A stretch of DNA of 64,000 nt. It comes from Escherichia phage A5-4. The position numbers and the translations under genes are program-made. Each line of letters begins with the position of its first letter. Position 1 is the stretch's first letter. Below, in pieces: positions 4,998 through 50,134 of this stretch. Where the stretch lies: the sequence record OP744025, one strand, 5' to 3'. The notes under the pieces are model-generated. The model was not told the origin of the DNA and searched no databases. It saw only the letters and a list, made by a program, of their open reading frames with translations.

Positions 4998-5001
4998 ACT
5001 A

Positions 5002-5056
5002 TTGACACTGTAAGTAATTGTGTTAATATTTTTGTGTAGGGCGGCAATGTTGCCGC
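5002..5056 (+). promoter_or_regulatory. TTGACA box plus stem-loop (gcggcaatgttgccgc) cassette
   Basis: TTGACA 5002-5007; hairpin 5041-5056. Confidence 0.5.
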
Positions 5057-5077
5057 TCACTGACTGGAGCTATCACC

Positions 5078-5479
5078 ATGACCTTTACAATCACCTCTTA
5101 CACTGACGTTGCCAGCATTGCTAAAACTTTCGGCCCTGAAGCCCTTAAATATGCGGTATCCAATGGTAATCTGACAAAAGAGGAATGTTATCTGATTGGA
5201 AGCTGTAAACGTTGGGCGGTATCTCGTAACATCGAGATTGAAAACGTAAATGATGGCAACATCGAATATAGCGTTGATGCAGTATTCCAAGTTGTTGATT
5301 TAGGTGGTATCTATAATACCAATCTTAATGATGTGCGTATCGTTCGCACTGGCTTTGGGGCTTATGATGTTCCAGTTCGTGAAGCTATGGAAAAAGGTTA
5401 TATTAATCCAGCCATTTTAAGCATGATCATGACTGAGGCCAAACAACGTAACGAGATACGGGCTATCCTGGGCCTGTAA
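5078..5479 (+). CDS. hypothetical early protein
   Basis: ORF track. Confidence 0.6.
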   Translation: MTFTITSYTDVASIAKTFGPEALKYAVSNGNLTKEECYLIGSCKRWAVSRNIEIENVNDGNIEYSVDAVFQVVDLGGIYNTNLNDVRIVRTGFGAYDVPVREAMEKGYINPAILSMIMTEAKQRNEIRAILGL

Positions 5480-5500
5480 TGAAATATTAATGGAAAACTA

Positions 5501-5552
5501 TTGACACGGATCGTCAATATGCTAATATTTATCACGTAGGGCGGCAACGCCC
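5501..5552 (+). promoter_or_regulatory. TTGACA box plus stem-loop (gggcggcaacgcccc) cassette
   Basis: TTGACA 5501-5506; hairpin 5539-5552. Confidence 0.5.
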
Positions 5553-5578
5553 CAGATTAATAAAAATAGGAAATAAAT

Positions 5579-5785
5579 ATGACTACTTCAATGATCAGAT
5601 CTTCCGACATTAAAAAGGCTTTATCTGCATTGCGTTATCATCATAGAATGAAAGTAATCAACGATGAGAGCTATCTAGATTCATCGTTAGAAAGCGATAC
5701 GTTGGAAGCCATTTCAAAATTATCTGATTTGCATAAACGCATGACCGAAAGCAACCGATCCGACTTCATAGGGGGCGAAATATGA
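5579..5785 (+). CDS. hypothetical early protein
   Basis: ORF track. Confidence 0.5.
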   Translation: MTTSMIRSSDIKKALSALRYHHRMKVINDESYLDSSLESDTLEAISKLSDLHKRMTESNRSDFIGGEI

Positions 5786-6042
5786 GCATTGCAATGTTAA
5801 TCAATACCGTAGAAGAGGCGAAAGCATTAAAGTTACGTGTTGAACTGATTGATCAGCCAGGTGGAGATCTCCTTGTACAAATCTATCCCCCAAAGGATGA
5901 TTCTGGCGCTTATGATTGGTGCTACTCTGACACGTTCGAACAAGTAGACATTAAAGCAATAACATCATTTATCAATAGGGCTATACTTGAGCAAACGATA
6001 GAACTTAACGGGATGTTAAAAACACCCTGGCACATTTACTGA
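5782..6042 (+). CDS. hypothetical early protein
   Basis: ORF track; 4-nt overlap with the previous ORF. Confidence 0.5.
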   Translation: MSIAMLINTVEEAKALKLRVELIDQPGGDLLVQIYPPKDDSGAYDWCYSDTFEQVDIKAITSFINRAILEQTIELNGMLKTPWHIY

Positions 6043-6053
6043 GTTCGACAAAA

Positions 6054-6079
6054 GGGCTTGACTTGTTCAGCCCTTTTTT
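6054..6079 (+). terminator. intrinsic terminator (gggct...agccc then T6)
   Basis: Hairpin 6054-6073 followed by TTTTTT immediately after the stop of ORF 5782..6042. Confidence 0.6.
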
Positions 6080-6219
6080 GCTATTCTTATCAAACGGGCG
6101 GCACCTGGGAACAGGGGGGAGGTAATCACTGGACGACTCCGCTATATAGTGATAGTAAATAGCTATCAATAATCTCCAAAAATAAAATAAAACCTATCGA
6201 GTCTTTACAATTCTTTCTA

Positions 6220-6265
6220 TTGACACAACAACCGCATTACAGTATTATTTATCTCGTAGGGCAGC
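6220..6265 (+). promoter_or_regulatory. TTGACA promoter-like box with conserved upstream ttacaattct motif
   Basis: ctattgacac at about 6218-6227; same upstream motif recurs at about 7246. Confidence 0.4.
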
Positions 6266-6521
6266 GAAGCAGTGATGTAAAGTAGTTACTCTATGATGTA
6301 AGTTCTGAGAAGTCGAATCCGATAAAGTATCAGAAAGTTTCTAAGTTTTCGAATCGTCCAGATGAAAAAGGCTGGCAAGTGTTGAGAAAGGGCACGTTGA
6401 GTAAGTCCTGAACAGGGGCGCTCCTAGACACCTTCTACTGAGATTGCGATCGAAGTGTTAAACTGTGAGAAACGATAAAGAGTACCAGGAAAGAAAGAAG
6501 TAAAAGAAGTGAAAAAGATTG

Positions 6522-6570
6522 TTGACACGAAGGTAAGTTTTGTACTATTATCTATCTTGTAGGGCAAACT
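6522..6570 (+). promoter_or_regulatory. TTGACA promoter-like box
   Basis: gttgacacg 6521-6529; tactattat -10-like; ORF at 6596. Confidence 0.45.
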
Positions 6571-6595
6571 TCAAGAACATTAAAAAGGGTACAAA

Positions 6596-6871
6596 ATGTT
6601 ACAGCTTAACGCCAAATTAGACAAAGAAATCACTGAGTTTTGGGATATGGTAGTGGCTACAGATGTTGACGGTGTAGCAAGTCCTTACCTCAATAACATT
6701 GAGTATCATAATGTTGCAGCTATGAATGCAGAATACGCAGAAGAAGGCGGCGCGGATAAGTTTGCTAAAAGCAACGGTTTCACTGATGCTAACGACATGA
6801 TGCAATCAGTTTTGTGGCAAGCCCAGGAAGATTTTGAAGAAAAAACTCTTGAATTCGCCAGACGTTCATAA
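6596..6871 (+). CDS. hypothetical protein
   Basis: ORF track; aaaaagggtacaaaATG. Confidence 0.55.
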   Translation: MLQLNAKLDKEITEFWDMVVATDVDGVASPYLNNIEYHNVAAMNAEYAEEGGADKFAKSNGFTDANDMMQSVLWQAQEDFEEKTLEFARRS

Positions 6872-6926
6872 TAGAATAATCAAACGGGCCGAAAGGCCCA
6901 CTAATTGACCTAACAGGATTAACATC

Positions 6927-7196
6927 ATGAATCGCATCGACCAGCTTAAAGTAGTTCAGCATATGGCTTACCGTATCCTTGAAGTTCAGAAAGGGAGCAA
7001 AAAAGAAGTATGTGAGAAGGCTTATAAGGTATTCAGCCACAAAGCTGATGATTGGAAGTTGCAGAAAGTAAAAAAGGCCGATATCCTGGGATACCTTGAA
7101 GAAGAGATCCGCATTGCAGACCAAAAACAGATTCGTCGTGATGAAGCAGAACATAACCAGGCCTGGCAAGAATGGTTTAAAGGCTACACTAAGTAA
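6927..7196 (+). CDS. hypothetical protein
   Basis: ORF track. Confidence 0.55.
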   Translation: MNRIDQLKVVQHMAYRILEVQKGSKKEVCEKAYKVFSHKADDWKLQKVKKADILGYLEEEIRIADQKQIRRDEAEHNQAWQEWFKGYTK

Positions 7197-7259
7197 AATT
7201 GAAAACGGGGGGCCATATGGTCCCTTTGTAAATATTCCATTAATTTACAATTCTCCCTA

Positions 7260-7290
7260 TTGACAAGAAAGTCAATTTTGCAGTATAGTT
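7260..7290 (+). promoter_or_regulatory. sigma70-like promoter TTGACA-N18-TATAGT
   Basis: TTGACA 7260-7265, TATAGT 7284-7289; conserved upstream ttacaattctccctat. Confidence 0.5.
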
Positions 7291-7329
7291 ATATCTCTAG
7301 CAGCAAACAACAAAACAAAGGACAACGAC

Positions 7330-7749
7330 ATGAACATCAAATCAACTAATCCGGCTTACTCTTTCGATAACGCTTTTTGTCACGGTAGCGCCGCCAAAGG
7401 TTTTGAAATTGATGGTAAACTGGTTATCGTCAATGTTGATGGGGAAGAGGTTGCAGTTTATCCAGTGGCAGACGTTAAAAGCCGTTTACAATGTCGCATG
7501 GACGTTAATGAATACCGCCTTGATCCGGTTCGTGTCGTTGCCCTGGTCCTGGAAGAAGAAATTAAAGCAATGCAGCACGGTAATAAGTTTATTGGTGATG
7601 CACAGGACAACATGAAAGTAAGCCGCCACAAAGTTAATGAAGCACTGAAAGATTTTGGCTTTAAAGACCTGATTATCAAACGTGATGAAAAATTCCGCTT
7701 TCGTAATGATCTGGCAAATCGCTACTATGAAATCTATGAAGCACTTTAA
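7330..7749 (+). CDS. hypothetical protein
   Basis: ORF track. Confidence 0.6.
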   Translation: MNIKSTNPAYSFDNAFCHGSAAKGFEIDGKLVIVNVDGEEVAVYPVADVKSRLQCRMDVNEYRLDPVRVVALVLEEEIKAMQHGNKFIGDAQDNMKVSRHKVNEALKDFGFKDLIIKRDEKFRFRNDLANRYYEIYEAL

Positions 7750-7764
7750 GAGGTAAGACAACAA

Positions 7765-7787
7765 GGGGCCGCAATAGCGGCCTTTTC
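7765..7787 (+). terminator. intrinsic terminator (ggccgc aata gcggcc then TTTT), overlapping the next TTGACA box
   Basis: Hairpin 7767-7782 and T-run 7783-7786, directly after the stop of ORF 7330..7749. Confidence 0.5.
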
Positions 7788-7869
7788 TATTGACACCTGC
7801 TAACCATTCCTTTAATATGCATCTTGTAGGGCAAGCAATAACGCAAGCCCACAAATAGGACAAACCATC

Positions 7870-8067
7870 ATGACCATCGCTAATCAACTGATCGCCGTAT
7901 TGAATGAAGCCAAATCTAATGAAATCGATGTACAGATCAAAGAATTGCCCAATGGCCTGATCGGTTGCACTTGCACCTGCTTCGGAAGTGACTACACAGA
8001 GGTAAGCTCTCTAGAATCTCTCATTCGTCACTTGAAATCAATAGTTGAAGATTGGAGAATCATCTAA
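7870..8067 (+). CDS. hypothetical protein
   Basis: ORF track; last plus-strand gene before the non-coding region. Confidence 0.5.
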   Translation: MTIANQLIAVLNEAKSNEIDVQIKELPNGLIGCTCTCFGSDYTEVSSLESLIRHLKSIVEDWRII

Positions 8068-8075
8068 TCAACCAG

Positions 8076-8093
8076 GGGCCGCAATAGTGGCCC
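8076..8093 (+). terminator. stem-loop (gggccgcaatagtggccc), near-copy of hairpin at 7767
   Basis: Same hairpin sequence family after the stop of ORF 7870..8067; weak T-tract. Confidence 0.4.
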
Positions 8094-26277: not shown

Positions 26278-26733
26278 TTACCCCTGTTTAAGCTTAAAAG
26301 ATTTAAAGGCTTCGATAAAGTCCATTTCTTTTTGCGTGTATTTGTGGTCAATTGTATCAGAGAAAAGAGGGCAACGACCATCAACCAACTTCACATCCCA
26401 CAGATGTTGAGGGAGAATAAATGCAATGGCTGTAAGTGCACCATTCAAAGAATCATTCTCCTCGCAGAAAAATGCGTAAGGAATCTTCTCTATGTTTGGA
26501 GCTAAAAATCCTTCTGCAAAATTAAGCATCTTCGATTGATAGCCTCCGTTCAACAAGATCATTGTTTGGTCTTTGCTTTGCCACTGATCTACAAGGTTGT
26601 ATCTGTCATCATATCGATCGGCATAGGCAAATCCATAATGACCTACAAGGTTTGCTGCTGCATGTGCTGCTTGGATACCTGCTTGGATTCCCATCATGTA
26701 GCTGTTTACCAATACGTACATCCGAGTTTTCAA
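26278..26733 (-). CDS. hypothetical protein
   Basis: ORF track. Confidence 0.55.
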   Translation of the reverse strand: MKTRMYVLVNSYMMGIQAGIQAAHAAANLVGHYGFAYADRYDDRYNLVDQWQSKDQTMILLNGGYQSKMLNFAEGFLAPNIEKIPYAFFCEENDSLNGALTAIAFILPQHLWDVKLVDGRCPLFSDTIDHKYTQKEMDFIEAFKSFKLKQG

Positions 26734-27050
26734 TTCTTACCTCCAAAAATTCGTTTTGCAAACTTTTCATTACCAATCGTTAGATTATAAACAACCATAG
26801 TTGAATAAACAATCCACGCAAGAGCATAAAACAAAATCAAGAAAGGCCACCCTACAAACCAGAATACAGTCATTATTAACCAACCTAGCATCAGGAGTTT
26901 ATAATTAACATTTCCGTGATTTAAAGGGTCGAGTAAGTTACTGTTTTCTGGCAAAGGGATACGAAACCCGCCCTGGCGAAGCTTGATTAACAAGAACCAA
27001 GCGGCAGAACTTATAATGCAACATAAAATATACGTTAATAAACTTGTCAT
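26730..27050 (-). CDS. membrane protein, tandem paralog 1
   Basis: Shares WFLLIKLRQ.GF.IP.P motif with the adjacent 27047 gene. Confidence 0.55.
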   Translation of the reverse strand: MTSLLTYILCCIISSAAWFLLIKLRQGGFRIPLPENSNLLDPLNHGNVNYKLLMLGWLIMTVFWFVGWPFLILFYALAWIVYSTMVVYNLTIGNEKFAKRIFGGKN

Positions 27051-27376
27051 TTTTTAACCCCAAAGATCTTAGTTAGTAATTTATCATTCCCTATAGTAAG
27101 GCCACATAAACTTTTTATACCGAACACCAAGTACGACCCAATTGTAACACAGATAATAATTGGGTAAACAAGATACCAGAAGAATGTTGCACATAGCCAA
27201 CCAACCATGACCATACGTAAATTTACATTTTCATTGTTCAGGGGTTCTAGGATATACAGGTCTTCACTATCCTTGGGGAAGGGGATGTTGAACCCCTTCT
27301 GCCGTAATTTGATCAATAAGAACCAAAGTGGACAACTGATCAAACAACCTATTAAATAACCTTCAACCATTTTCAC
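27047..27376 (-). CDS. membrane protein, tandem paralog 2
   Basis: See paralog 1. Confidence 0.55.
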   Translation of the reverse strand: MKMVEGYLIGCLISCPLWFLLIKLRQKGFNIPFPKDSEDLYILEPLNNENVNLRMVMVGWLCATFFWYLVYPIIICVTIGSYLVFGIKSLCGLTIGNDKLLTKIFGVKK

Positions 27377-29547: not shown

Positions 29548-30393
29548 TTATTTGCCCCCTTCTTTCGCCGCAGTGATGATCTGTTCAATTAACTCGTCAC
29601 GATAATAAACGTACTGTTCAACACCGAAACATTCCGCAATCTCGTCTAGTTCGTCGAGGTTGTACTCGTCAAAGTCTCGTGGGTTAAGAGTAAAGATGTT
29701 GAATTTTTTGGCGTAGCCTTCGTCGAGGACGATTTCAAATTCTCCCTCTCCGATTTCCTTCGCATCATCAACATCACTCGATTCGATTGACCCTTCAACC
29801 TTAATCCCCCCTGTATTTTGTTGATCGGCTTCCATTTGCTTTTTAATTGCTTCATCTTCAGCGGTCAAACGGGCTTGCATCTGAGAGGAAGTGAAGTAAA
29901 TTTCGCCAGCACGATCAAACAGTTCAACGAGTTCATCTTCTGTCATAACACCCTTGTACAGATCGTAGTATTTCTCTTTGAACAGGTCTTTGTAGAAATC
30001 GCTACGTTTAAATACCAGCGCCGAGTCACCACCCATACTCATCTGAACGTTGTGGAACATATAATGAGAACCTGGACGACAAATTCGAACATGACCAGAT
30101 AAGAAGATCATTGTTGCAGCACTTGCCACTTCACCAATGCCGTGTGTCACAACAGTCGCCTTAGCTTCAGAGATCGCTGTCATGTACATATCTGCGATAT
30201 CACAATAACCACCGCAAGAAGTAATGTATAGATTTACAATATCACCTTCTGGTGCTGAACGAATCAGATCAACAGCCTCAATATGTGCTTCAGGTGAGTT
30301 GTGCAGATCGGTAACATAGATACGCCAATCGTTAGAAGTTACTGGAGATACCCAAATGTTTTTTGCTGGACCATTCATTACGATTTCTTCCAT
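29548..30393 (-). CDS. ClpP-like serine peptidase with acidic C-terminal tail
   Basis: ClpP-like segments NLYITSCGG, GEVASAATMIFLSG, HYMFHNVQ. Confidence 0.45.
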   Translation of the reverse strand: MEEIVMNGPAKNIWVSPVTSNDWRIYVTDLHNSPEAHIEAVDLIRSAPEGDIVNLYITSCGGYCDIADMYMTAISEAKATVVTHGIGEVASAATMIFLSGHVRICRPGSHYMFHNVQMSMGGDSALVFKRSDFYKDLFKEKYYDLYKGVMTEDELVELFDRAGEIYFTSSQMQARLTAEDEAIKKQMEADQQNTGGIKVEGSIESSDVDDAKEIGEGEFEIVLDEGYAKKFNIFTLNPRDFDEYNLDELDEIAECFGVEQYVYYRDELIEQIITAAKEGGK

Positions 30394-30884: not shown

Positions 30885-31202
30885 TTAAATTCCGATTAAA
30901 TATTTAAACTTCCCGTCGTTCTCTGCGATCTTGTGGATTACATAGAACCAATTTTCAATTCCGTCTTCATCTTCCTCTTTCACACGATCACCAGTTTTCA
31001 ACTCAACCTCGGAAACGTACTCCTTACTTTCAAGAAAATACTTCCACTGAACCATGTCTTTAAAATTACAGATTAGTTTATTTTTGCCATCTGTCGTCCA
31101 AAGGTCCTGATTGACCCACATACCAACAACGAAATTCTTTTCTTTTTTAGGACGACCAAGTGCATAAGTGTTGTTTAACATCTTTGCTTTATCTAAGACC
31201 AC
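30885..31202 (-). CDS. hypothetical protein
   Basis: ORF track. Confidence 0.5.
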   Translation of the reverse strand: MVLDKAKMLNNTYALGRPKKEKNFVVGMWVNQDLWTTDGKNKLICNFKDMVQWKYFLESKEYVSEVELKTGDRVKEEDEDGIENWFYVIHKIAENDGKFKYLIGI

Positions 31203-31842
31203 GTTTTGACTCCAAGTTAACTAAGAAATTCTCAAGCACTGTGATGTTGTCTTCTTTCCAAAGATTAAGTGTTCTTACTCCACTCTTCTTTGCAAGATTG
31301 ACTGCTGTAGCAGTGCCGCCCTTGGGATTGCCCGTTCTTGTTTCCTTTGCGTAGTATATCACAAACTTACTTTGCATCAAGTATGCATTTGAAAGATTTT
31401 TACCAAAAATCTGGTGTACGTTTCTTTCGTGCAACTTCCTTGCCCCCTGACTCAACTTATCCCAACCACCATGAACTTCCTTTATCCATTCCCACCTCAT
31501 TTCCTTATGTTCTGGAAATTCTATATCAATCGCGTTTAGTGAGATATTATACAGATCTTTAAGTCCCTGTCCACCTTTAAAGTTGTCCCAAGGAACATAT
31601 ACCTCTGCAAGTTTGCTCGGCGATTGAGCCATATTACAATCTTCATGAAACCTCTGCATACCCCTTTGGAAGGCTGCATCTGCACCACCTGCACCACCAG
31701 ATCGTAATGTGTACCCAACCCTTGCTAATCTCCAACCTGCATCTTCCATAATTTTTAATATTTCTTCAGGAGTCTCCCTTGAACCTATTCCTGTATAAGC
31801 TGGCACTTTAACCTCCTTCATCTTCAGTTGACCAGTACCCAT
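31189..31842 (-). CDS. DprA/Smf-like (SLOG-type Rossmann) protein
   Basis: Motifs YTGIGSRETP, TLRSGGAGGADAAFQRG and GGTATAVNLAKKSG; start approximate (internal Met). Confidence 0.4.
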   Translation of the reverse strand: MGTGQLKMKEVKVPAYTGIGSRETPEEILKIMEDAGWRLARVGYTLRSGGAGGADAAFQRGMQRFHEDCNMAQSPSKLAEVYVPWDNFKGGQGLKDLYNISLNAIDIEFPEHKEMRWEWIKEVHGGWDKLSQGARKLHERNVHQIFGKNLSNAYLMQSKFVIYYAKETRTGNPKGGTATAVNLAKKSGVRTLNLWKEDNITVLENFLVNLESKRGLR

Positions 31843-32290
31843 TAACTTTTTTCCAAAGCCTTTGGTTATCTGATCCCCTGAATCTTTTAGTTGTAGGTTT
31901 GTTTTCATTATACTTACCGTCCATGATTAAGTCAACGTGTTTCTTTATTTCCTCATCCAAGTCTTCAAAAAGATACCCTGTCCACACCATGATATCTTTA
32001 CTCTCACCAAAGCACAACTTTACTTCCTTGATGATTCTTTTTACAATATCAATATTCTCAGGGTCAAGAGGTTCTCCACCCATAATTGACAATCCACTGA
32101 TAAAGTTTCGAGAAAGATCTTTTTTCAATCTCTCCATATCTTCATCTGTGAATTCTTTTCCATACCTGTATGACCAAGCCTTTTGGTTAAAACAGCCTTT
32201 GCACTTATGGCTGCATCCACTAACCCACAGGGAGGTTCTTACACCCTCCCCGTTGATGAAGTCTGTGCTTTCATACCCGCAGATGTTCAA
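31808..32290 (-). CDS. nrdG: anaerobic ribonucleotide reductase activating protein (radical SAM)
   Basis: Cys cluster GCSHKCKGCFN; position immediately downstream of nrdD. Confidence 0.8.
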   Translation of the reverse strand: MNICGYESTDFINGEGVRTSLWVSGCSHKCKGCFNQKAWSYRYGKEFTDEDMERLKKDLSRNFISGLSIMGGEPLDPENIDIVKRIIKEVKLCFGESKDIMVWTGYLFEDLDEEIKKHVDLIMDGKYNENKPTTKRFRGSDNQRLWKKVNGYWSTEDEGG

Positions 32291-34365
32291 ACGTGTTTTT
32301 CCCTTTGTAAGACCTCCTGCATCTTACCCTTATTATAAGGTCTTGCATTCGGAGCCGATAAATAACCAGAAACCCGTCGGATTACTGAAATTGTTCCTTC
32401 TTCTTTATTCCCGCAACAAGGGCATTCAAAACCTTTTGCTGTTGCATGGAATTCACCACTAAAGTTACACTTAAAGCACTGGTCCACAGGTTGATTGACA
32501 CCAAAGTAAGGTATCATTTTATAACCGTAATCGATCAATGTTTCAAGTGCCTTCATATTATTTTTCAAGTTTGGCGTTTCAACATAACCAATATTACCGC
32601 CTGAACTTATTGTTGCGAAACCGGATTCATACTTCCACTTAGCGAAAGGATCTGAATGTTCCCAAACAGGTACATGAAAAGAGTTTGTAAGGTAGTCTCG
32701 CTTAATGGCTTCTGGATATTTTTCCTTCAGCTTTGTGGCGAAACGATAGCACAGACTCTCCGCAGGTGTTCCATAAAGACTGAAAGAAAGGTGTGAACGA
32801 TCTCTGAACTCGTCACACTTAAGTTTCATATGATTAAGGATCATTATCGCTAAACCCTTATGCTTTTGCCCCAAGATAATATCAACTGCTTCCGATAAGC
32901 CTACATATCCAATACTGATCGATGCGTACCCGTCATAGAATAACTTACTAATCTTTTCATCAGCGCCCAACCTTGCTAAAGCACCCTCCATAAACAGGGT
33001 TGGGTTTTGAGATGCTTTCACATTCTTGAGTCTATTGACACGAACCATGTGAGATTCGTATGCCTTTTCCATATGCTCGTCAAGGAAAGCGTAAAAATCA
33101 CCACCTTTTGCTTTGTACTCTGCTGCAATCAGCGGTAAATTTATAGAGACAACACCTAAATTGAATCTACCATCATACTTCTCTCCATGTTCTGTCGTAA
33201 ATTTGGAAAGGAAGCTCCTACAACCCATACTTGTAACTTTCCCATCTGAAGATCCAGTAACCTCTTTATTTAATGGCACAGAGATGAAGTCAGGATAGAT
33301 CCTTTCAACACAGCACTGCATTGCCATTTGTTTAAGGTCATAATTAACATCACCAGGTTTCAGGTTTACACCATCTTGCAAAAAGAAGACAACCTTCGGA
33401 AAAACTGGAGTTACCTTATCCTTGCCAAGCCCCTCAGTATGGACCTTTAGATAGTTTTTGGTAATCATTCTACCAAACTCTGAAGTTTCAAGACCCATAC
33501 TGATCGTAATGAAAGGCGATTGACCGTTAACACTCATTAAAGTATTAACCTGATAAACCAGAGTCTGCATTGCATCATACACATCTCGGTCTGTCATTTC
33601 CATTGCTAAAGATTCATTAGGTTTTCCGATCTTTTCTAAAAACTCGATATTCTTTTTGTGACTCATCTCAACATATGTTTTCAAACCCTCATCGATATGA
33701 GCACATGTTTGTCCTCCGTATTGACTGGATGCTACAGCCTGAATGATTTGAGTCAGAACTGTTGTTGCAACACCAATCGACTTAGGTTTTTCGATCTTTG
33801 CATTTCCAATCTTAAAACCATTTTCAAGCATGTCCCGATAGTTAACAAGACAACAGTTAGTTAATGGACTAACCAAATAATCCAAGTCGTGAATGTGACC
33901 ATAACCTTCATTGTGCCAAGCAGCGAGGTCTTTTGGCAAGATCTGATTAATACTGACATGCTTGCTTAAAATACCTGCCAGCAAGTCCCGATGAGTATTT
34001 ACCAAATTGCTAGGTTTGTTTGCATTCTCACGAGTAAATTCTTCAGCCGTTTGATCCAAAAATCCGCTAATATCTGAATAAAGTTTACCTTTGCCTTCAC
34101 GAACTGAATCCCGATCATGACGGTATTCAATATAGCATCTGGCAGCATCTTGAAGATTTTTCTGACTCATTAAGGTATTCTCAACAACCTTATGAATCTC
34201 TTCTACAGATATACGATCTTTATCTTCAATCTGACTAACGACTTCAGTAATGAGTTTATCAACATCGGCTTTAGTGCCTGCGGATAAAAGAGCGCCCCGA
34301 AGGGCTGCTCCGATCTTATCCGTGCACAAGGTTTCTTCACGCCCGTCACGTTTTGCAATAATCAA
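32287..34365 (-). CDS. nrdD: anaerobic ribonucleoside-triphosphate reductase (class III)
   Basis: 692 aa; C-terminal glycyl-radical motif RRVSGYL and zinc ribbon CFKCNFSG...CPCCGN. Confidence 0.85.
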   Translation of the reverse strand: MIIAKRDGREETLCTDKIGAALRGALLSAGTKADVDKLITEVVSQIEDKDRISVEEIHKVVENTLMSQKNLQDAARCYIEYRHDRDSVREGKGKLYSDISGFLDQTAEEFTRENANKPSNLVNTHRDLLAGILSKHVSINQILPKDLAAWHNEGYGHIHDLDYLVSPLTNCCLVNYRDMLENGFKIGNAKIEKPKSIGVATTVLTQIIQAVASSQYGGQTCAHIDEGLKTYVEMSHKKNIEFLEKIGKPNESLAMEMTDRDVYDAMQTLVYQVNTLMSVNGQSPFITISMGLETSEFGRMITKNYLKVHTEGLGKDKVTPVFPKVVFFLQDGVNLKPGDVNYDLKQMAMQCCVERIYPDFISVPLNKEVTGSSDGKVTSMGCRSFLSKFTTEHGEKYDGRFNLGVVSINLPLIAAEYKAKGGDFYAFLDEHMEKAYESHMVRVNRLKNVKASQNPTLFMEGALARLGADEKISKLFYDGYASISIGYVGLSEAVDIILGQKHKGLAIMILNHMKLKCDEFRDRSHLSFSLYGTPAESLCYRFATKLKEKYPEAIKRDYLTNSFHVPVWEHSDPFAKWKYESGFATISSGGNIGYVETPNLKNNMKALETLIDYGYKMIPYFGVNQPVDQCFKCNFSGEFHATAKGFECPCCGNKEEGTISVIRRVSGYLSAPNARPYNKGKMQEVLQREKHV

Positions 34366-34367
34366 CC

Positions 34368-35114
34368 TTAATTACCTCCTTTAAGATCCTTTTCACGAGC
34401 CTTGACAACTGCCTTACAGAATGGACTACGAACGATTTCTTCACTAGTCGCTTCAACATAATCGGCAAAGTCGTAAAGTTCATGACGATCAATGAATTCG
34501 ATTGCCCATTCTAATCCAGTTTCACGATTACGCATATCGTTCTGTGTGATATCGCCTAAGCAGAACAGCTTAGAACTTTCACCTTTACGAGTCATGATCG
34601 TGTAAGCCGTATCTTCATCTGTGTTCTGAAACTCATCGACAATAACAACCGCATTATCGAAAGAACGCCCACGGATATATTCCAGAGGAACAAATTCAAT
34701 GTTACCACAACCCAACTGAGTTTCAAAGAAACCGTGACCGTAGCGTTGCTGAATAACCTGAATAAGTGCCTGAAGGAAAGGCTCGAATTTCTCACGGATA
34801 GTCCCAGGTAGTAACCCGAGGCTGTTCCCCATTCCCAATGTTGGTCGAGTAAGGACGATCTTTTCAATCTTACCTTGCTTCAGCCAATCAATAACGGTAC
34901 TCATAATGACAAATGTCTTACCTGTACCCGCCGGAGCGTTAACGAAAACAACTTCCTTCTCGTTAACCAGAGATAACAATTCCTTTTGGAATCGGTTCTT
35001 TGGAGTAATAGGTTTTTTCAACTCTTCATAGGCTTTAGGTGTTACCTGACGGCCTTTTGAACGCTTCTCTTCACGACGATCCTGACGAGATTTACGATTA
35101 GTATGACGTTGCAT
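34368..35114 (-). CDS. phoH: PhoH-like ATPase
   Basis: Walker A NAPAGTGKT; length and motif order typical of phage PhoH. Confidence 0.8.
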   Translation of the reverse strand: MQRHTNRKSRQDRREEKRSKGRQVTPKAYEELKKPITPKNRFQKELLSLVNEKEVVFVNAPAGTGKTFVIMSTVIDWLKQGKIEKIVLTRPTLGMGNSLGLLPGTIREKFEPFLQALIQVIQQRYGHGFFETQLGCGNIEFVPLEYIRGRSFDNAVVIVDEFQNTDEDTAYTIMTRKGESSKLFCLGDITQNDMRNRETGLEWAIEFIDRHELYDFADYVEATSEEIVRSPFCKAVVKAREKDLKGGN

Positions 35115-47476: not shown

Positions 47477-48585
47477 TAAATACCTACCCGTTTTAAAGTT
47501 GAGGCTAATGTTGTCTTATCATTTTCTGTACGCTTCATATAAACACACTGGAAAATGACAGAAGCCCACTGACCCGCCGAAAACTTACGATGATTCCCTA
47601 AGTGGTCTGTATATTCAACACCCTCAGGAAACCACTTCTTATACTGATCAATAATAGCTAACCACATACTCTTCTCGTCTGCACAAGGGGAGATGACCTG
47701 GAAAGCCGATGTTTCACCAAAGCGAAGACCCTCGAAGGTTTGATATGGTTTAACGTTATCCGCTGCATCACCAAATAGCATTTGGTAACCGAAGAATTTC
47801 TTACCCCAACCTTTTACCTTACCAGACTCCATCCAGATCTCACCCATAGAATCATCGATCAACCAAAGTTCAGGATGTTTCCATGTACGCTCTGTTGAGT
47901 CACGCATTGTGTTAAACAACAAAGAAGGAACCTGGACCTGATCCTTATCGAATGATGCCACAATATGACTAAACTTTCCAGTCTTCCGATAATTTAAATA
48001 TCCTTTATATCCAAGGATCGATAAATAATCATCTGCCTCAATACCATCCACAATGATCGCACCATACTTCTGCTGAACATATCGACGAGTCTCCCCAAGC
48101 AACAAAGGACGTAAAGTATCTTCACGGTTACCCTTATAGACCTCGGGGGTCGGGAGTGCAAGACGGAAGTTACCACTCCCACCTAAAACACCAAGCCCGT
48201 TTGCTGATCCTACGTGCTCAAGAATAGCATTGATCTTAATCTTCAATAAGTGAAGACAGTTCTCAACTGGTTCTGGAGTTTGCTTTTCAATGATCTCGAA
48301 ATCATCACGAGTCCACGGAGTAAATTCTTTTCCGCGAGCAACCGCTTTTGCTTCCATATTAATGTTTTGGTCTTTTAACCACCCACCAACAACATTCTTT
48401 TGGCGACCCCAGAACTCTGTTCGATTTTTAAACTCTTTCTCTCGGCCTGTTTCTTTGTGCCGAGCAATGATCGTTCGCTTCTCTGCACCTGCCGCAGCCA
48501 CGTATGCTGTCTGGTCAAGATCCAGAGCTACTACAACATTATCTTCTACAATGCCGGACCAATCTTTTACTTTAGGATATCCCAT
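47476..48585 (-). CDS. rnh: RNase H / flap endonuclease (T4 rnh-like 5'-3' exonuclease)
   Basis: VVALDLDQTAYVAAA and GIEADDYLSIL parallel T4 RNase H ICLIDFSQIALSTAL and YEADDHIAVL. Confidence 0.55.
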   Translation of the reverse strand: MGYPKVKDWSGIVEDNVVVALDLDQTAYVAAAGAEKRTIIARHKETGREKEFKNRTEFWGRQKNVVGGWLKDQNINMEAKAVARGKEFTPWTRDDFEIIEKQTPEPVENCLHLLKIKINAILEHVGSANGLGVLGGSGNFRLALPTPEVYKGNREDTLRPLLLGETRRYVQQKYGAIIVDGIEADDYLSILGYKGYLNYRKTGKFSHIVASFDKDQVQVPSLLFNTMRDSTERTWKHPELWLIDDSMGEIWMESGKVKGWGKKFFGYQMLFGDAADNVKPYQTFEGLRFGETSAFQVISPCADEKSMWLAIIDQYKKWFPEGVEYTDHLGNHRKFSAGQWASVIFQCVYMKRTENDKTTLASTLKRVGI

Positions 48586-49079
48586 TATAACTCCTTACCG
48601 TGATTTTCATGAAAGCCGTATTTAATCTCTGCTGCTTTTCTTGCAGCAATTGCATCCTCTTTATCTTCGAAGCGTCCTAGGTATACTCTAACACGATTTA
48701 CAGTTATAGATGCAAGCCATTTTTGCTCTTTTTCCCTCCACATGACCCCTGTGTATCCACTTTTATTACGAGAACTCTTCTTGTTGTTTCTCATATTGTC
48801 TATCTGAGATACCATACGAAGATTACTCATCCTGTTATCCCAAGGTACGTGGTTTATATGGTCAATTACCTTATTGTCCGGTATTTCTCCATTGTTAATT
48901 TCCCACGCTACACGATGACCGAGATGAAGAACGCCATCTAACCATATGTGTATATAACCCCTTTTCTTATTTCTTTTTCCTGCAACGTCACCAGGATAAA
49001 TACCATTATGTCTTCTAACTTTCCAGTACATAACCCCAGTTTCTTGATCGTAAATAAGATAATCATGCCAATTTACCAT
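48585..49079 (-). CDS. HNH homing endonuclease with AP2 DNA-binding domain
   Basis: HNH motif HLGHRVAWE...IDHINHVPWDNRMSNLR; AP2-like GYTGVMWREKEQKWLASITVNRVRVYLGRFEDKEDA. Confidence 0.7.
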   Translation of the reverse strand: MVNWHDYLIYDQETGVMYWKVRRHNGIYPGDVAGKRNKKRGYIHIWLDGVLHLGHRVAWEINNGEIPDNKVIDHINHVPWDNRMSNLRMVSQIDNMRNNKKSSRNKSGYTGVMWREKEQKWLASITVNRVRVYLGRFEDKEDAIAARKAAEIKYGFHENHGKEL

Positions 49080-49582
49080 CAGAAAGCCTCGCCGTAATCT
49101 TCGTCTTCTTTAACTTCTTTTACTGGTCGCTTGAATTTGAAATCTTTACCCATATATTCATACAAATAATCAATATTCAAAGACCATTCTTGCTTACTTC
49201 TTTGTCGCCACAATGCCGCAGCTTGCATAATGTATTCTTCAGCAGCCTTCTTGTCAACACCGTTAACTTTCATAAAGTGTCGTATTGCACGAGCCATGTT
49301 ACCAGTTGCTTGAGCACGACCGATGTGTTTTACTTCATGGCAAGGAGGGCATAAAGCAATCACGCCTCGTAACACAACTTCACTATTAACAAAGTCCCAC
49401 ACTTCGTGGGCCTCTACCGGATGCTTACGACCGTTCCCGCCTTTTCCACCACAAACTTCACAAGTGTAGTTGGCCTCTTGATAACATTTACGACGAACTT
49501 TGTCCCATCCCGCTTGGGTAAGGTAAGATCGAAGGTTGTTGTCCCAAGCTGTGCTTGGGATTAATTCGATAGTTAATTTCAT
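49079..49582 (-). CDS. zinc-binding HNH-like nuclease (tentative)
   Basis: Cys/His pattern CEVCGGKG...HPVEAHEVW...CPPCHEVKH. Confidence 0.35.
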   Translation of the reverse strand: MKLTIELIPSTAWDNNLRSYLTQAGWDKVRRKCYQEANYTCEVCGGKGGNGRKHPVEAHEVWDFVNSEVVLRGVIALCPPCHEVKHIGRAQATGNMARAIRHFMKVNGVDKKAAEEYIMQAAALWRQRSKQEWSLNIDYLYEYMGKDFKFKRPVKEVKEDEDYGEAF

Positions 49583-50134
49583 TTAGTATGCCTCACATTT
49601 ACCAATCATATTCATAGCTTCAGAAACATCGATAATCATATCGGTTGCTTCGTCCCAAGCTTTCCCCAAGAGATTCTCACCATACCAGAAACTTTCATCA
49701 TCTACCATAGGGTGATTCTCATCCATACCGATCCCCCATATACGATCTCTCGGAGAAGCCTCTACAAACTTTAAACCCTTTTTACGGTAACCTACCGCAA
49801 GTTCACGGAGATTACCATTATCACACATACGACTATACACTAAACGGGTTACAATGTTAAATTTATTTTCATCCCAAACTGCCTGATCAAAATCCTTAAC
49901 TTTACGACCTAGCCTTTTAGCACCTTGTGGAGTTACAGATTTAAGGATTCTTTCCGCTGAAGCTTTGTCACCGAAAAGCATAGCCTTTTCATACATCATG
50001 TAATGCTCACCTGTGTGGAAATAAACCCCTTTCATCTTCTGGTCGAAGTTTGAAAACGGAGAGATCTCCTGGTAATGATTACTAAAAACATCACGAAAAG
50101 AATAAAAGAACACATGTTTATCAGTGACTCGCAT
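49583..50134 (-). CDS. NADAR-domain (YbiA-like) protein
   Basis: Motifs FFYSF, FSNF, GEHYMMYEKAMLF, LGRKVKDFD, WGIGMDENHP typical of NADAR/DUF1768; start set at internal Met. Confidence 0.6.
   Translation of the reverse strand: MRVTDKHVFFYSFRDVFSNHYQEISPFSNFDQKMKGVYFHTGEHYMMYEKAMLFGDKASAERILKSVTPQGAKRLGRKVKDFDQAVWDENKFNIVTRLVYSRMCDNGNLRELAVGYRKKGLKFVEASPRDRIWGIGMDENHPMVDDESFWYGENLLGKAWDEATDMIIDVSEAMNMIGKCEAY

What the first reader, a model, noticed from the sequence alone, without database searches (positions are those of the whole stretch)
31189..31842. DprA/SLOG-like Rossmann protein overlapping the end of nrdG
The protein carries GIGSRETP and SGGAGGADAAFQRG, resembling the nucleotide-binding loops of the DprA/Smf-LOG (SLOG) superfamily. 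Placement directly after nrdD-nrdG suggests a nucleotide-processing or ssDNA-binding role not found in canonical T4.
Basis: inference. Interest (0 to 1): 0.45.

Follow-up and report, generated by a model that had tools for sequence, protein, structure and literature searches.

The report
Phage DprA-like SLOG nucleotide-pocket protein
This is a real gene for a small phage protein of the already catalogued "DprA-like" branch of the SLOG nucleotide-binding superfamily; its position after nrdD-nrdG comes from a local cassette insertion, and its true role (probably in the NAD/ADP-ribose arms race with the host) has never been tested.

Summary
The ORF and both motifs are real, on the minus strand. 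The likely start is GTG at 31806 (AAGGAGG 5 nt upstream, 1 nt after the nrdG stop), giving 205 aa. On that start it does not overlap nrdG.

The window is from an rV5-like phage (Vequintavirinae), not a T4-like one. Relatives at 51-69% identity have PhoH directly upstream, so nrdD-nrdG is a lineage-specific insertion. nrdG lies within 5 kb in 0 of 67 loci.

Informative context points elsewhere:
- fusions to NADAR and DUF4326 domains;
- placement beside phage NAD+-reconstitution operons (Adps-Namat-Macro) in several lineages;
- a stand-alone NADAR gene 18 kb away in this window.

Best reading (about 0.4): a DprA-type pocket protein acting on ADP-ribose-linked nucleotides in counter-defence. No experimental data exist. 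The family and this prediction are already published, so novelty is low.

The parts
31189..31806 (-). CDS of the 205-aa phage DprA-like SLOG protein (GTG start, TAA stop)
   Evidence: ORF. The start is supported by homologue N-termini, the SD sequence and the A73 annotation. PHROG 768 E=9.6e-63. AF2 pLDDT 94.9.
31812..31818 (-). Shine-Dalgarno sequence AAGGAGG, 5 nt upstream of the GTG start, inside the last codons of nrdG
   Evidence: Read directly from the sequence.
31768..31791 (-). Codons for residues 6-13, GIGSRETP. This is DprA motif 1 (G-S/T/A-R), the loop after strand 1; R10 aligns with HpDprA Arg52.
   Evidence: G8 99%, S9 95%, R10 99% in 150 diverse representatives. Aligned to GTR of HpDprA. 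Motif definition from PMC3950713.
31660..31701 (-). Codons for residues 36-49, SGGAGGADAAFQRG. This is the S-G-x-A-x-G-x-D loop/helix after strand 2, shared with DprA (HpDprA SGGALGVD).
   Evidence: S36 97%, G37 100%, A39 98%, G41 100%, D43 100%. The hhalign alignment covers this segment.
31420..31434 (-). Codons for residues 125-129, LHERN. This is DprA motif 2 (F/L/Y-x-x-R-N/D), the pocket helix; R128/N129 align with HpDprA Arg143/Asn144.
   Evidence: L125 89%, H126 98%, R128 100%, N129 100%. The relaxed hhalign run places LHERN on FLARN. Numbering checked.
31303..31323 (-). Codons for residues 162-168, KGGTATA. This is the Gly-rich loop after strand 4; G164 aligns with HpDprA Gly164. It occupies the place of the LOG motif PGGxGTxxE, but without the Glu.
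   Evidence: G163, G164 and T165 are 100% conserved. Aligned to KSGS of HpDprA.
31808..34365 (-). nrdD (32287-34365) and nrdG (31808-32290): a lineage-specific cassette inserted between PhoH and the SLOG gene. It is context, not part of a conserved unit.
   Evidence: A73 annotation. Absent at this position in L012-L016 and L002. nrdG 0 of 67 and nrdD 1 of 67 loci.
34368..35114 (-). PhoH-like ATPase, the ancestral upstream neighbour of the SLOG gene in this phage group
   Evidence: PhoH ends within 10 nt of the SLOG start in L012-L015. Pfam PhoH match for the neighbour cluster.
30885..31202 (-). Downstream 105-aa gene (PHROG 5456, unknown function) that overlaps the SLOG stop by 14 nt. It is syntenic in relatives down to 51% identity.
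49583..50134 (-). Stand-alone NADAR-domain gene in the same phage, 18 kb away. NADAR is the most frequent identifiable fusion partner of this SLOG family.
   Evidence: Own NADAR profile E=3e-7. Pfam PF08719 E=4.1e-37, 128 bits against a cut-off of 35.

Best explanation
The gene encodes a single-domain, 205-aa member of the phage 'DprA-like' family (PHROG 768). This is a distinct branch of the SLOG Rossmannoid superfamily whose nearest solved relatives are bacterial DprA domains.

Shown:
- It retains the DprA pocket elements: the G-S-R loop, the L-x-x-R-N helix and the G-G-T loop. In H. pylori DprA these hold one inserted base and the flanking phosphates.
- It adds family-specific invariant polar residues: R35, W73, H112, H126, Q132, T165 and N181.

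Inferred:
- The protein uses this pocket to hold one nucleotide unit.
- That ligand is an ADP-ribose-type nucleotide, either a soluble NAD+-derived product or signal, or an ADP-ribosylated base on ssDNA. The basis is the family's repeated fusion to NADAR and DUF4326 domains and its placement next to phage NAD+-reconstitution operons.
- The protein binds or hydrolyses this ligand as part of counter-defence against NAD+/ADP-ribose-based host immunity.

In this phage it is translated from a tightly packed polycistronic block (PhoH, NrdD, NrdG, SLOG, p105 and onward). It acts without a NARP1 operon, but the genome does carry a separate NADAR gene. It is not a functional partner of NrdDG.
For: Family and fold:
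- PHROG 768 E=9.6e-63.
- AF2 pLDDT 94.9.
- Foldseek: HpDprA E=3e-5.
- The family forms its own viral cluster (TM 0.7-0.83), distinct from viral YspA/DUF2493 and LOG proteins.

Pocket:
- hhalign against DprA/ShosA/Smf gives E=5e-5 and aligns GSR with GTR (Arg52), LHERN with FLARN (Phe140-Asn144), and KGGT with KSGS (Gly164).
- These residues are 89-100% conserved in 150 diverse representatives.
- Their role in DprA is described in PMC3950713.

Link to ADP-ribose:
- Of 10 multidomain relatives scanned, 4 carry NADAR and 1 carries DUF4326.
- Within 5 kb, a Macro gene occurs in 6 of 34 lineages and NAMPT/Namat in 4 of 34. Pakpunavirus-like phages share a conserved block Prs/Adps, Namat, Macro, a ~100-aa gene, then SLOG. 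Namat sits 1-2 genes upstream in three further lineages.
- That block corresponds to the experimentally shown NARP1-AP operon (bioRxiv 10.64898/2026.01.28.702374).
- A NADAR gene is present in this window.
- Independent published prediction: Iyer et al. 2022, PMC9503650.
Against: - No experiment exists on any member; none was found in 9 literature searches.
- The NAD-related neighbours occur in a minority of lineages (4-6 of 34). They could simply reflect clustering of accessory genes in early regions.
- This phage has no NAMPT, Prs, Macro or DUF4326 gene, and its NADAR gene is 18 kb away.
- The conserved pocket is the one that binds ssDNA in genuine DprA, so plain ssDNA binding is not excluded.
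- Pocket equivalence rests on a relaxed-threshold profile alignment (probability 67%), not on a structural superposition.
- Iyer et al. assign most viral SLOGs to the YpsA-like clade, whereas this family scores closer to DprA. Their prediction may therefore not have been made for this family specifically.
Confidence: 0.4

Rival explanations
1. It is what its PHROG name says: a minimal DprA-type ssDNA-binding protein. It would protect phage single-stranded DNA and mediate loading of a RecA/UvsX-type recombinase during replication-coupled recombination.
For: - DprA proteins are the top structural hits.
- Both DprA-defining motifs and Gly164 are conserved.
- The DprA domain alone suffices for ssDNA binding in HpDprA.
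- The conserved upstream neighbour is PhoH, a nucleic-acid-dependent ATPase family.
- An RNA ligase lies directly upstream in two T4-like lineages.
- Iyer et al. 2021 proposed phage DprA as an extra ssDNA binder.
Against: - Pfam DprA scores 16.9 bits against a cut-off of 29.6, and TIGR00732 scores 14.2 against 191.
- There are no SAM or winged-helix accessory domains.
- The family carries invariant His, Gln, Asn and Trp residues absent from DprA, which suggests a different or more specific ligand.
- Identifiable fusion partners are NADAR and DUF4326, not recombination proteins.
- No conserved linkage to recombinase genes was seen in 67 loci.
- Dimerisation and RecA-binding determinants could not be tested.
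Confidence: 0.25
2. This is the first reader's idea: a LOG/PpnN-like nucleotide N-glycosidase or nucleotide-processing enzyme that works with NrdD/NrdG in remodelling the deoxynucleotide pool.
For: - Nucleotide-metabolism genes (RNR subunits, glutaredoxin, PhoH) recur within 5 kb in 3-5 of 34 lineages.
- The gene is translationally packed behind nrdG in this window.
Against: - The LOG catalytic motif PGGxGTxxE is absent. The position reads KGGTATAV with no Glu.
- nrdG lies within 5 kb in 0 of 67 loci and nrdD in 1 of 67, and nrdDG is an insertion in this clade only.
- DprA outranks LOG in both fold searches.
Confidence: 0.08
3. It is an orphan antitoxin mimic. The phage protein would substitute for the DprA-like antitoxin ShosA/PsyrA and so keep the ShosT/PsyrT phosphoribosyltransferase toxin silent. 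This would be analogous to phage orphan NADARs that neutralise DarTG1.
For: - The only PADLOC hit is PsyrA (E=4e-4).
- ShosA's antitoxin activity depends on ssDNA binding and RecA binding rather than on binding the toxin (PMC12961424), so a surrogate could in principle work.
- There is a precedent for orphan antitoxin counter-defence (PMC11825919).
Against: - The PsyrA match covers only residues 7-47, the motif region shared by all DprA-type domains.
- ShosA is a weaker structural match than DprA, the Moco carrier protein or LOG.
- The family is far more widespread (1,419 phage records across many host genera) than a counter to a single system would suggest.
- There is no direct evidence.
Confidence: 0.07

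Closest known systems
PHROG 768, 'DprA-like DNA recombination-mediator protein' of phages (e.g. PaoP5_014, KP15_208, ESCO5 gp067, Presley_17)
   Same: Full-length match (residues 37-236 of the long ORF against profile positions 5-186 of 191, E=9.6e-63). Same size, same invariant motifs and the same single-domain architecture. The window protein is a member.
   Different: Nothing substantive. The closest GenBank orthologues (A73, UPEC06; 94.6% amino-acid identity to UPEC06) are labelled 'hypothetical protein'. Placement behind nrdG is peculiar to this clade.
Bacterial DprA/Smf DNA-processing domain (Pfam PF02481; HpDprA 4LJK/4LJR, RpDprA 3MAJ, SpDprA 3UQZ)
   Different: - Below the Pfam and TIGRFAM cut-offs, with TM only about 0.5.
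- A ~20-residue insertion after strand 3 carries invariant P72-W73-x-x-F76.
- Extra invariant residues R35, H112, H126, Q132, T165 and N181.
- The third Arg of DprA's 'RNR' is V/I here.
- No SAM or DML1 domains.
- ssDNA binding, dimerisation and RecA binding are all untested.
ShosA/PsyrA, the DprA-like antitoxin of the ShosTA defence system (8ZVA, 9VZO)
   Different: ShosA is 308-331 aa with an N-terminal extension and is encoded next to the ShosT PRTase toxin. The phage protein stands alone with no such partner, and the sequence match is limited to residues 7-47.
Viral SLOG domains of the NAD+-ADPr network (Iyer, Burroughs, Anantharaman, Aravind 2022, PMC9503650)
   Same: Same contextual signature: fusions to NADAR, Macro and DUF4326, co-occurrence with NADAR, and placement among early or host-takeover genes. 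The published prediction is that they sense or process ADP-ribose derivatives. I found the same fusions and neighbours independently.
LOG / PpnN nucleotide N-glycosidases and the cADPR-sensing SLOG domain of ThsA
   Different: The LOG motif PGGxGTxxE is absent. No sequence-level match to either. ThsA ligand-contact residues were not compared.

Membership tests
SLOG (Smf/DprA-LOG) Rossmannoid superfamily | Three-layer alpha/beta fold with a five-stranded parallel sheet, most similar to solved SLOG members | tested here: met
SLOG (Smf/DprA-LOG) Rossmannoid superfamily | Conserved Gly-rich or polar loops after strand 1 and after strand 4 that contact the nucleotide | tested here: met
   G6-x-G8-S9-R10 follows strand 1, and G163-G164-T165 follows strand 4. 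These are 92-100% conserved in 150 representatives.
PHROG 768 (phage DprA-like) | Full-length significant match to the family profile | tested here: met
   E=9.6e-63, 212 bits, profile positions 5-186 of 191.
DprA domain (Pfam PF02481 / TIGR00732) | Score above the curated family cut-off | tested here: not met
   PF02481 scores 16.9 bits against 29.6 and matches residues 22-82 only. TIGR00732 scores 14.2 bits against 191. No precomputed Pfam domain on any of the 120 listed homologues.
DprA domain (Pfam PF02481 / TIGR00732) | Motif 1, G-S/T/A-R, in the loop after the first core strand (HpDprA Gly50-Arg52; Wang et al. 2014) | tested here: met
   G8-S9-R10 aligns to GTR in both hhalign runs. Conservation is 99%, 95% and 99%. 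Definition.
DprA domain (Pfam PF02481 / TIGR00732) | Motif 2, F/L/Y-x-x-R-N/D, in the pocket helix (HpDprA Phe140-Asn144) | tested here: met
   L125-H-E-R128-N129 falls on F-L-A-R-N in the relaxed hhalign alignment (E=5e-5, probability 67%, 149 columns). R128 and N129 are 100% conserved and L125 is 89%. Caveat: the default local alignment stops before this motif.
DprA domain (Pfam PF02481 / TIGR00732) | Binds ssDNA through the pocket; forms dimers; interacts with RecA | not testable with these tools
   This needs EMSA or MST, SEC-MALS and pull-downs. Net charge and pI do not discriminate: DprA references have pI 5.75-9.2 and the family median is 7.9.
LOG / PpnN phosphoribohydrolases | Catalytic motif P-G-G-x-G-T-x-x-E | tested here: not met
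   The corresponding segment is K-G-G-T-A-T-A-V with no Glu. It is invariant as G-G-T across the family. No Pfam Lysine_decarbox hit.
ShosA/PsyrA antitoxin of ShosTA | Full-length match to the PsyrA model, and a gene adjacent to a ShosT PRTase toxin | tested here: not met
   PADLOC PsyrA E=4e-4 over residues 7-47 only. The neighbours here are nrdG and a 105-aa PHROG of unknown function.
YpsA-like / YspA (YAcAr, DUF2493) viral SLOG clade | Sequence or structural affinity greater than to other SLOG clades | tested here: not met
   nrdG 0 of 67 loci and nrdD 1 of 67 loci within 5 kb. PhoH is directly upstream in L012-L016 and L002.

The most novel reading that the evidence does not exclude
PHROG 768 could be an uncharacterised enzymatic or sequestering arm of phage counter-defence against NAD+-derived nucleotides. 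It would use a DprA-type base pocket plus family-specific His, Gln and Asn residues in one of two ways:
(a) to convert non-canonical NAD+ breakdown or signalling products (for example cyclic ADPR isomers) into forms that NARP1 can recycle. This would parallel the recently shown Macro phosphatase Adpp, next to which the gene sits in several lineages.
(b) to recognise ADP-ribosylated bases on ssDNA and present them to NADAR-type de-ADP-ribosylases, the domain it is repeatedly fused to. That would be an anti-DarTG function.
Probability: 0.3. Interest if true: 0.6.

Novelty: already known. Interest (0 to 1): 0.3.

Why it matters
The gene itself is ordinary: it is a member of a catalogued family present in more than a thousand sequenced phages. 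It matters in two ways.

First, as a correction.

Second, as a pointer. This is one of the most widespread phage accessory families with an intact, invariant nucleotide pocket and no experimental data. Its fusions and neighbours tie it to the NAD+/ADP-ribose arms race (NARP1, NARP1-AP, AdfN/NADAR), where new counter-defence activities are currently being found. A binding or activity assay on one member would settle the function for thousands of proteins.

Tried and rejected
- PDB sequence searches with the protein and with the family profile gave only chance-level hits (phycocyanin, pyruvate kinase). Fold search was needed.
- hhalign in default local mode aligned only 43 N-terminal columns, and the global mode was meaningless (probability 1.5%). 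Only the relaxed-MAC local run spanned both motifs, so motif-2 equivalence is moderately, not strongly, supported.
- Net charge and pI as a proxy for ssDNA binding do not discriminate, because genuine DprA domains range from pI 5.75 to 9.2.
- Single-sequence phmmer with NADAR domains missed the window's NADAR gene. A 4-sequence profile found it.
- The non-SLOG parts of five other fusion proteins had no Pfam match.
- Other conserved neighbours (p105, p156, c35, c40 and the ~100-aa gene between Macro and SLOG) are PHROGs of unknown function.
- I first read the neighbouring Macro protein as DarG-like, because its best PDB hits are in the TARG1/DarG/BT1257 group. The 2026 Osterman preprint shows that NARP1-associated Macro proteins are Poa1p-like ADPR-1''-phosphatases. 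That explains the neighbour better and weakens the anti-DarTG reading.
- Literature checks found no experimental work on this family: DprA-like + phage, SLOG + anti-defence, SLOG + gcADPR, NADAR + SLOG, Tad3 and the Migulavirinae hotspot.

Full report
**The observation**

The region holds a genuine ORF on the minus strand. Its longest form is 31189..31908, 239 aa.
- Thirty-six homologues begin 1-4 residues before the conserved Y-T-G-I-G-S-R motif (A1).
- A strong AAGGAGG Shine-Dalgarno sequence lies at 31812-31818, five bases upstream of a GTG at 31806.
- Phage A73, 96.5% identical at the nucleotide level, annotates the same 618-nt CDS.

The protein is therefore 205 aa (31189..31806). It starts one base after the nrdG TAA stop (31808-31810) and does not overlap nrdG. 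Its stop overlaps the next gene by 14 nt.

**Source and abundance**

The window is from an rV5-like myovirus of the subfamily Vequintavirinae (A73, W70, UPEC06, A7_1, LTH01; 94.7-96.5% identity over 6 kb). It is not a T4-like phage. The protein family is very large:
- tblastn finds it in 1,419 of 50,697 phage records, across Klebsiella, Pseudomonas, Escherichia, Vibrio, Aeromonas, Acinetobacter and other hosts.
- An exhaustive profile search finds 5,545 clusters at 50% identity.
- Many T4-like Straboviridae carry it, including KP15, ECD7 and Aes508. Absence from T4 itself was not tested.

**What it is**

Sequence searches:
- PHROG 768, 'DprA-like DNA recombination-mediator protein', matches over the full length at E=9.6e-63.
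- Pfam gives only sub-threshold N-terminal matches: DprA 16.9 bits against a cut-off of 29.6, and SLOG cluster 4 at E=0.18.
- TIGR00732 scores 14.2 bits against 191.
- No solved structure is detectable by sequence.

Structure:
- An AlphaFold2 model built on a 37-sequence alignment is confident, with pLDDT 94.9 and pTM 0.90.
- Foldseek ranks HpDprA chains first, at E about 3e-5 and TM about 0.5.
- In the viral structure library the family forms its own tight cluster (E=1e-14, TM 0.7-0.83). It is well separated from viral YspA/DUF2493 and LOG proteins (TM about 0.4).

**Test of DprA membership**

Wang et al. 2014 (PMC3950713) define the DprA domain by two motifs: G-S/T/A-R (HpDprA Gly50-Arg52) and F/L/Y-x-x-R-N/D (Phe140-Asn144). 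They show that Arg52, Tyr108, Phe140, Arg143, Asn144 and Gly164 form a pocket that takes one base of ssDNA.

I built a reference alignment of four solved DprA/ShosA sequences plus E. coli Smf and compared profiles:
- The default local run aligns 43 N-terminal columns (E=9e-5, probability 59%).
- A relaxed-threshold run aligns 149 columns (E=5e-5, probability 67%).
- The relaxed run places GSR on GTR, SGGAGGAD on SGGALGVD, L125-H-E-R128-N129 on F140-L-A-R143-N144, and K-G-G164-T on K-S-G164-S. Numbering was checked.

Conservation across 150 diverse representatives:
- DprA-pocket positions: G8 99%, S9 95%, R10 99%, L125 89%, R128 100%, N129 100%, G164 100%.
- Family-specific positions that DprA lacks: R35 100%, W73 91%, H112 92%, H126 98%, Q132 99%, T165 100%, N181 93%.

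The LOG catalytic motif PGGxGTxxE is absent.

Verdict: this is a distinct phage family on the DprA side of the SLOG superfamily. It keeps the DprA nucleotide pocket, but it is not a DprA orthologue by curated thresholds, and it has no SAM or winged-helix accessory domains.

**The nrdDG context is not informative**

- In 67 related loci falling into 34 lineages (SLOG proteins grouped at 60% identity), nrdG is within 5 kb in none and nrdD in one.
- In the nearest relatives outside the window's clade (65-69% identity, L012-L015) and in the 51%-identical Klebsiella group (L016, L002), the order is PhoH, SLOG, p105, p156, ClpP-like, methyltransferase, CCA-adding enzyme. In L012-L015, PhoH ends within 10 nt of the SLOG start.
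- nrdD-nrdG (31808-34365) is therefore a cassette inserted between PhoH and the SLOG gene in this clade only.

**Context that is informative**

Fusions. Among the best 150 representatives, ten clear multidomain proteins were scanned:
- four carry NADAR (two ~330-aa NADAR-SLOG proteins and two ~1,480-aa polyvalent proteins that also hold YAcAr and LDcluster4 SLOG domains);
- one carries DUF4326;
- five have no identifiable partner.

Neighbours within 5 kb, by lineage:

| Neighbour | Lineages (of 34) |
|---|---|
| ClpP-like protease | 7 |
| Macro | 6 |
| PhoH | 5 |
| RNR large subunit | 4 |
| RNR small subunit | 4 |
| NAMPT-family | 4 |
| Glutaredoxin | 3 |

- Pakpunavirus-like Pseudomonas phages share the block Prs, NAMPT, Macro, a ~100-aa gene, then SLOG.
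- NAMPT is 1-2 genes upstream in three further lineages, and close by in pf16 and KP15.
- Prs plus NAMPT homologues are the Adps and Namat enzymes of the NAD+ reconstitution pathway NARP1. The associated Macro protein was recently shown to be an ADPR-1''-phosphatase that extends NARP1 (bioRxiv 10.64898/2026.01.28.702374).
- In two T4-like lineages an RNA ligase is immediately upstream.

This phage:
- It has no NAMPT, Prs, Macro or DUF4326 gene in the window or in the first 100 kb of A73, which together cover essentially the whole genome.
- It does have a stand-alone NADAR gene at 49583-50134 (Pfam E=4e-37).

**Literature**

- Iyer et al. 2022 (PMC9503650) had already surveyed viral SLOG domains. 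They noted fusions to Macro, NADAR and DUF4326 and predicted that these domains sense or degrade ADP-ribose derivatives.
- The same group earlier suggested that phage DprA might be an extra ssDNA binder (PMC7824862).
- Phage NADARs such as T4 gp30.3 (AdfN) remove ADP-ribose from guanine in DNA and defeat DarTG1 (PMC11825919, PMC11125620).
- The DprA-like antitoxin ShosA binds ssDNA and RecA (PMC12961424).
- I found no experiment on any member of this phage family.

**Mechanism**

Shown: fold, family, conserved pocket, the insertion origin of the nrdDG adjacency, and the fusions and neighbourhoods.

Inferred: the pocket holds one nucleotide unit. The recurrent links to NADAR, DUF4326 and NARP1(-AP) make an ADP-ribose-type ligand, free or on ssDNA, the most likely one. 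The probable role is counter-defence. I put this at about 0.4.

Rivals:

| Rival | Confidence | Comment |
|---|---|---|
| Plain DprA-like ssDNA binding or recombinase loading | 0.25 | Uses the same pocket and cannot be excluded without an assay |
| LOG-like nucleosidase coupled to NrdDG | 0.08 | Disfavoured by the missing catalytic motif and the non-conserved adjacency |
| ShosA-mimicking orphan antitoxin | 0.07 | Speculative |

My initial reading of the Macro neighbour as DarG-like is better explained by the NARP1-AP phosphatase. That lowers the anti-DarTG version of the idea.

**Verdict**

The start coordinate and the claimed overlap are probably wrong. The nrdDG-based functional inference is not supported. 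The family, its database name and the ADP-ribose hypothesis are all already public, so novelty is low. The remaining interest is that a very widespread phage family with an invariant nucleotide pocket is still experimentally untouched.

Noticed in passing
window 49583-50134 (- strand): A stand-alone NADAR-domain gene (Pfam PF08719, E=4.1e-37). NADARs of phages such as T4 gp30.3/AdfN are experimentally shown anti-DarTG1 de-ADP-ribosylases. This one is not of the Phage_30_3 type by Pfam. A73's annotation of this stretch was not retrieved (A73 was read for 1-100,000 and 103,580-115,578 only).
   Followed up: partly
window 31808-34365 compared with L012-L016 and L002: nrdD-nrdG is a 2.56-kb cassette inserted precisely between PhoH and the SLOG gene in the A73/UPEC06 clade. 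Relatives at 51-69% identity have PhoH abutting the SLOG gene. Where those relatives keep anaerobic RNR genes, if they have them, was not examined.
   Followed up: partly
window 48585-49582 (- strand): Two ORFs sit directly downstream of the NADAR gene. The 164-aa one looks by eye like an HNH/AP2-type homing endonuclease and was not scanned. The 167-aa one is Cys/His-rich and has no Pfam hit. They may mark a mobile insertion next to NADAR.
   Followed up: no
window 26730-27376 (- strand): Two adjacent paralogous small ORFs (106 and 109 aa) with similar hydrophobic sequences ('WFLLIKLRQ.GF.IP.P'). This looks like a tandem duplication of a putative membrane protein just downstream of the CCA-adding enzyme gene.
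   Followed up: no
L032, L034, L038, L061, L044 (about 5000-9900); also PaoP5 L005 and pf16 L007: A conserved same-strand block Prs/Adps, NAMPT/Namat, Macro ('phosphatase', PHROG 335), a ~100-aa gene (PHROG 37348), SLOG, PHROG 11764, PHROG 3360. In other words, the SLOG gene and three families of unknown function travel with the NARP1-AP operon. They are candidates for further NARP1 accessory or anti-defence genes.
   Followed up: partly
proteins P0130 (1475 aa) and P0133 (1488 aa): Giant polyvalent proteins that combine this DprA-like domain, a YAcAr/YspA SLOG domain, an LDcluster4 SLOG domain and a C-terminal NADAR domain in one polypeptide. That is three different SLOG clades plus a de-ADP-ribosylase.
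   Followed up: partly
KP15 L004 2959-4549; Roth51 L010 2479-4034: In two T4-like lineages the SLOG gene abuts or overlaps the 3' end of an RNA ligase gene and lies near the head-gene cluster (gene 24 region). This hints at a link to RNA or nick repair, or at a hyperplastic insertion site.
   Followed up: no
window 29548-30393 (- strand) and the neighbour cluster in 7 of 34 lineages: A divergent ClpP-like protease (Pfam CLP_protease, E=4e-8) with a long acidic C-terminal extension is the most widely shared neighbour of the SLOG gene. Its role is unknown.
   Followed up: no
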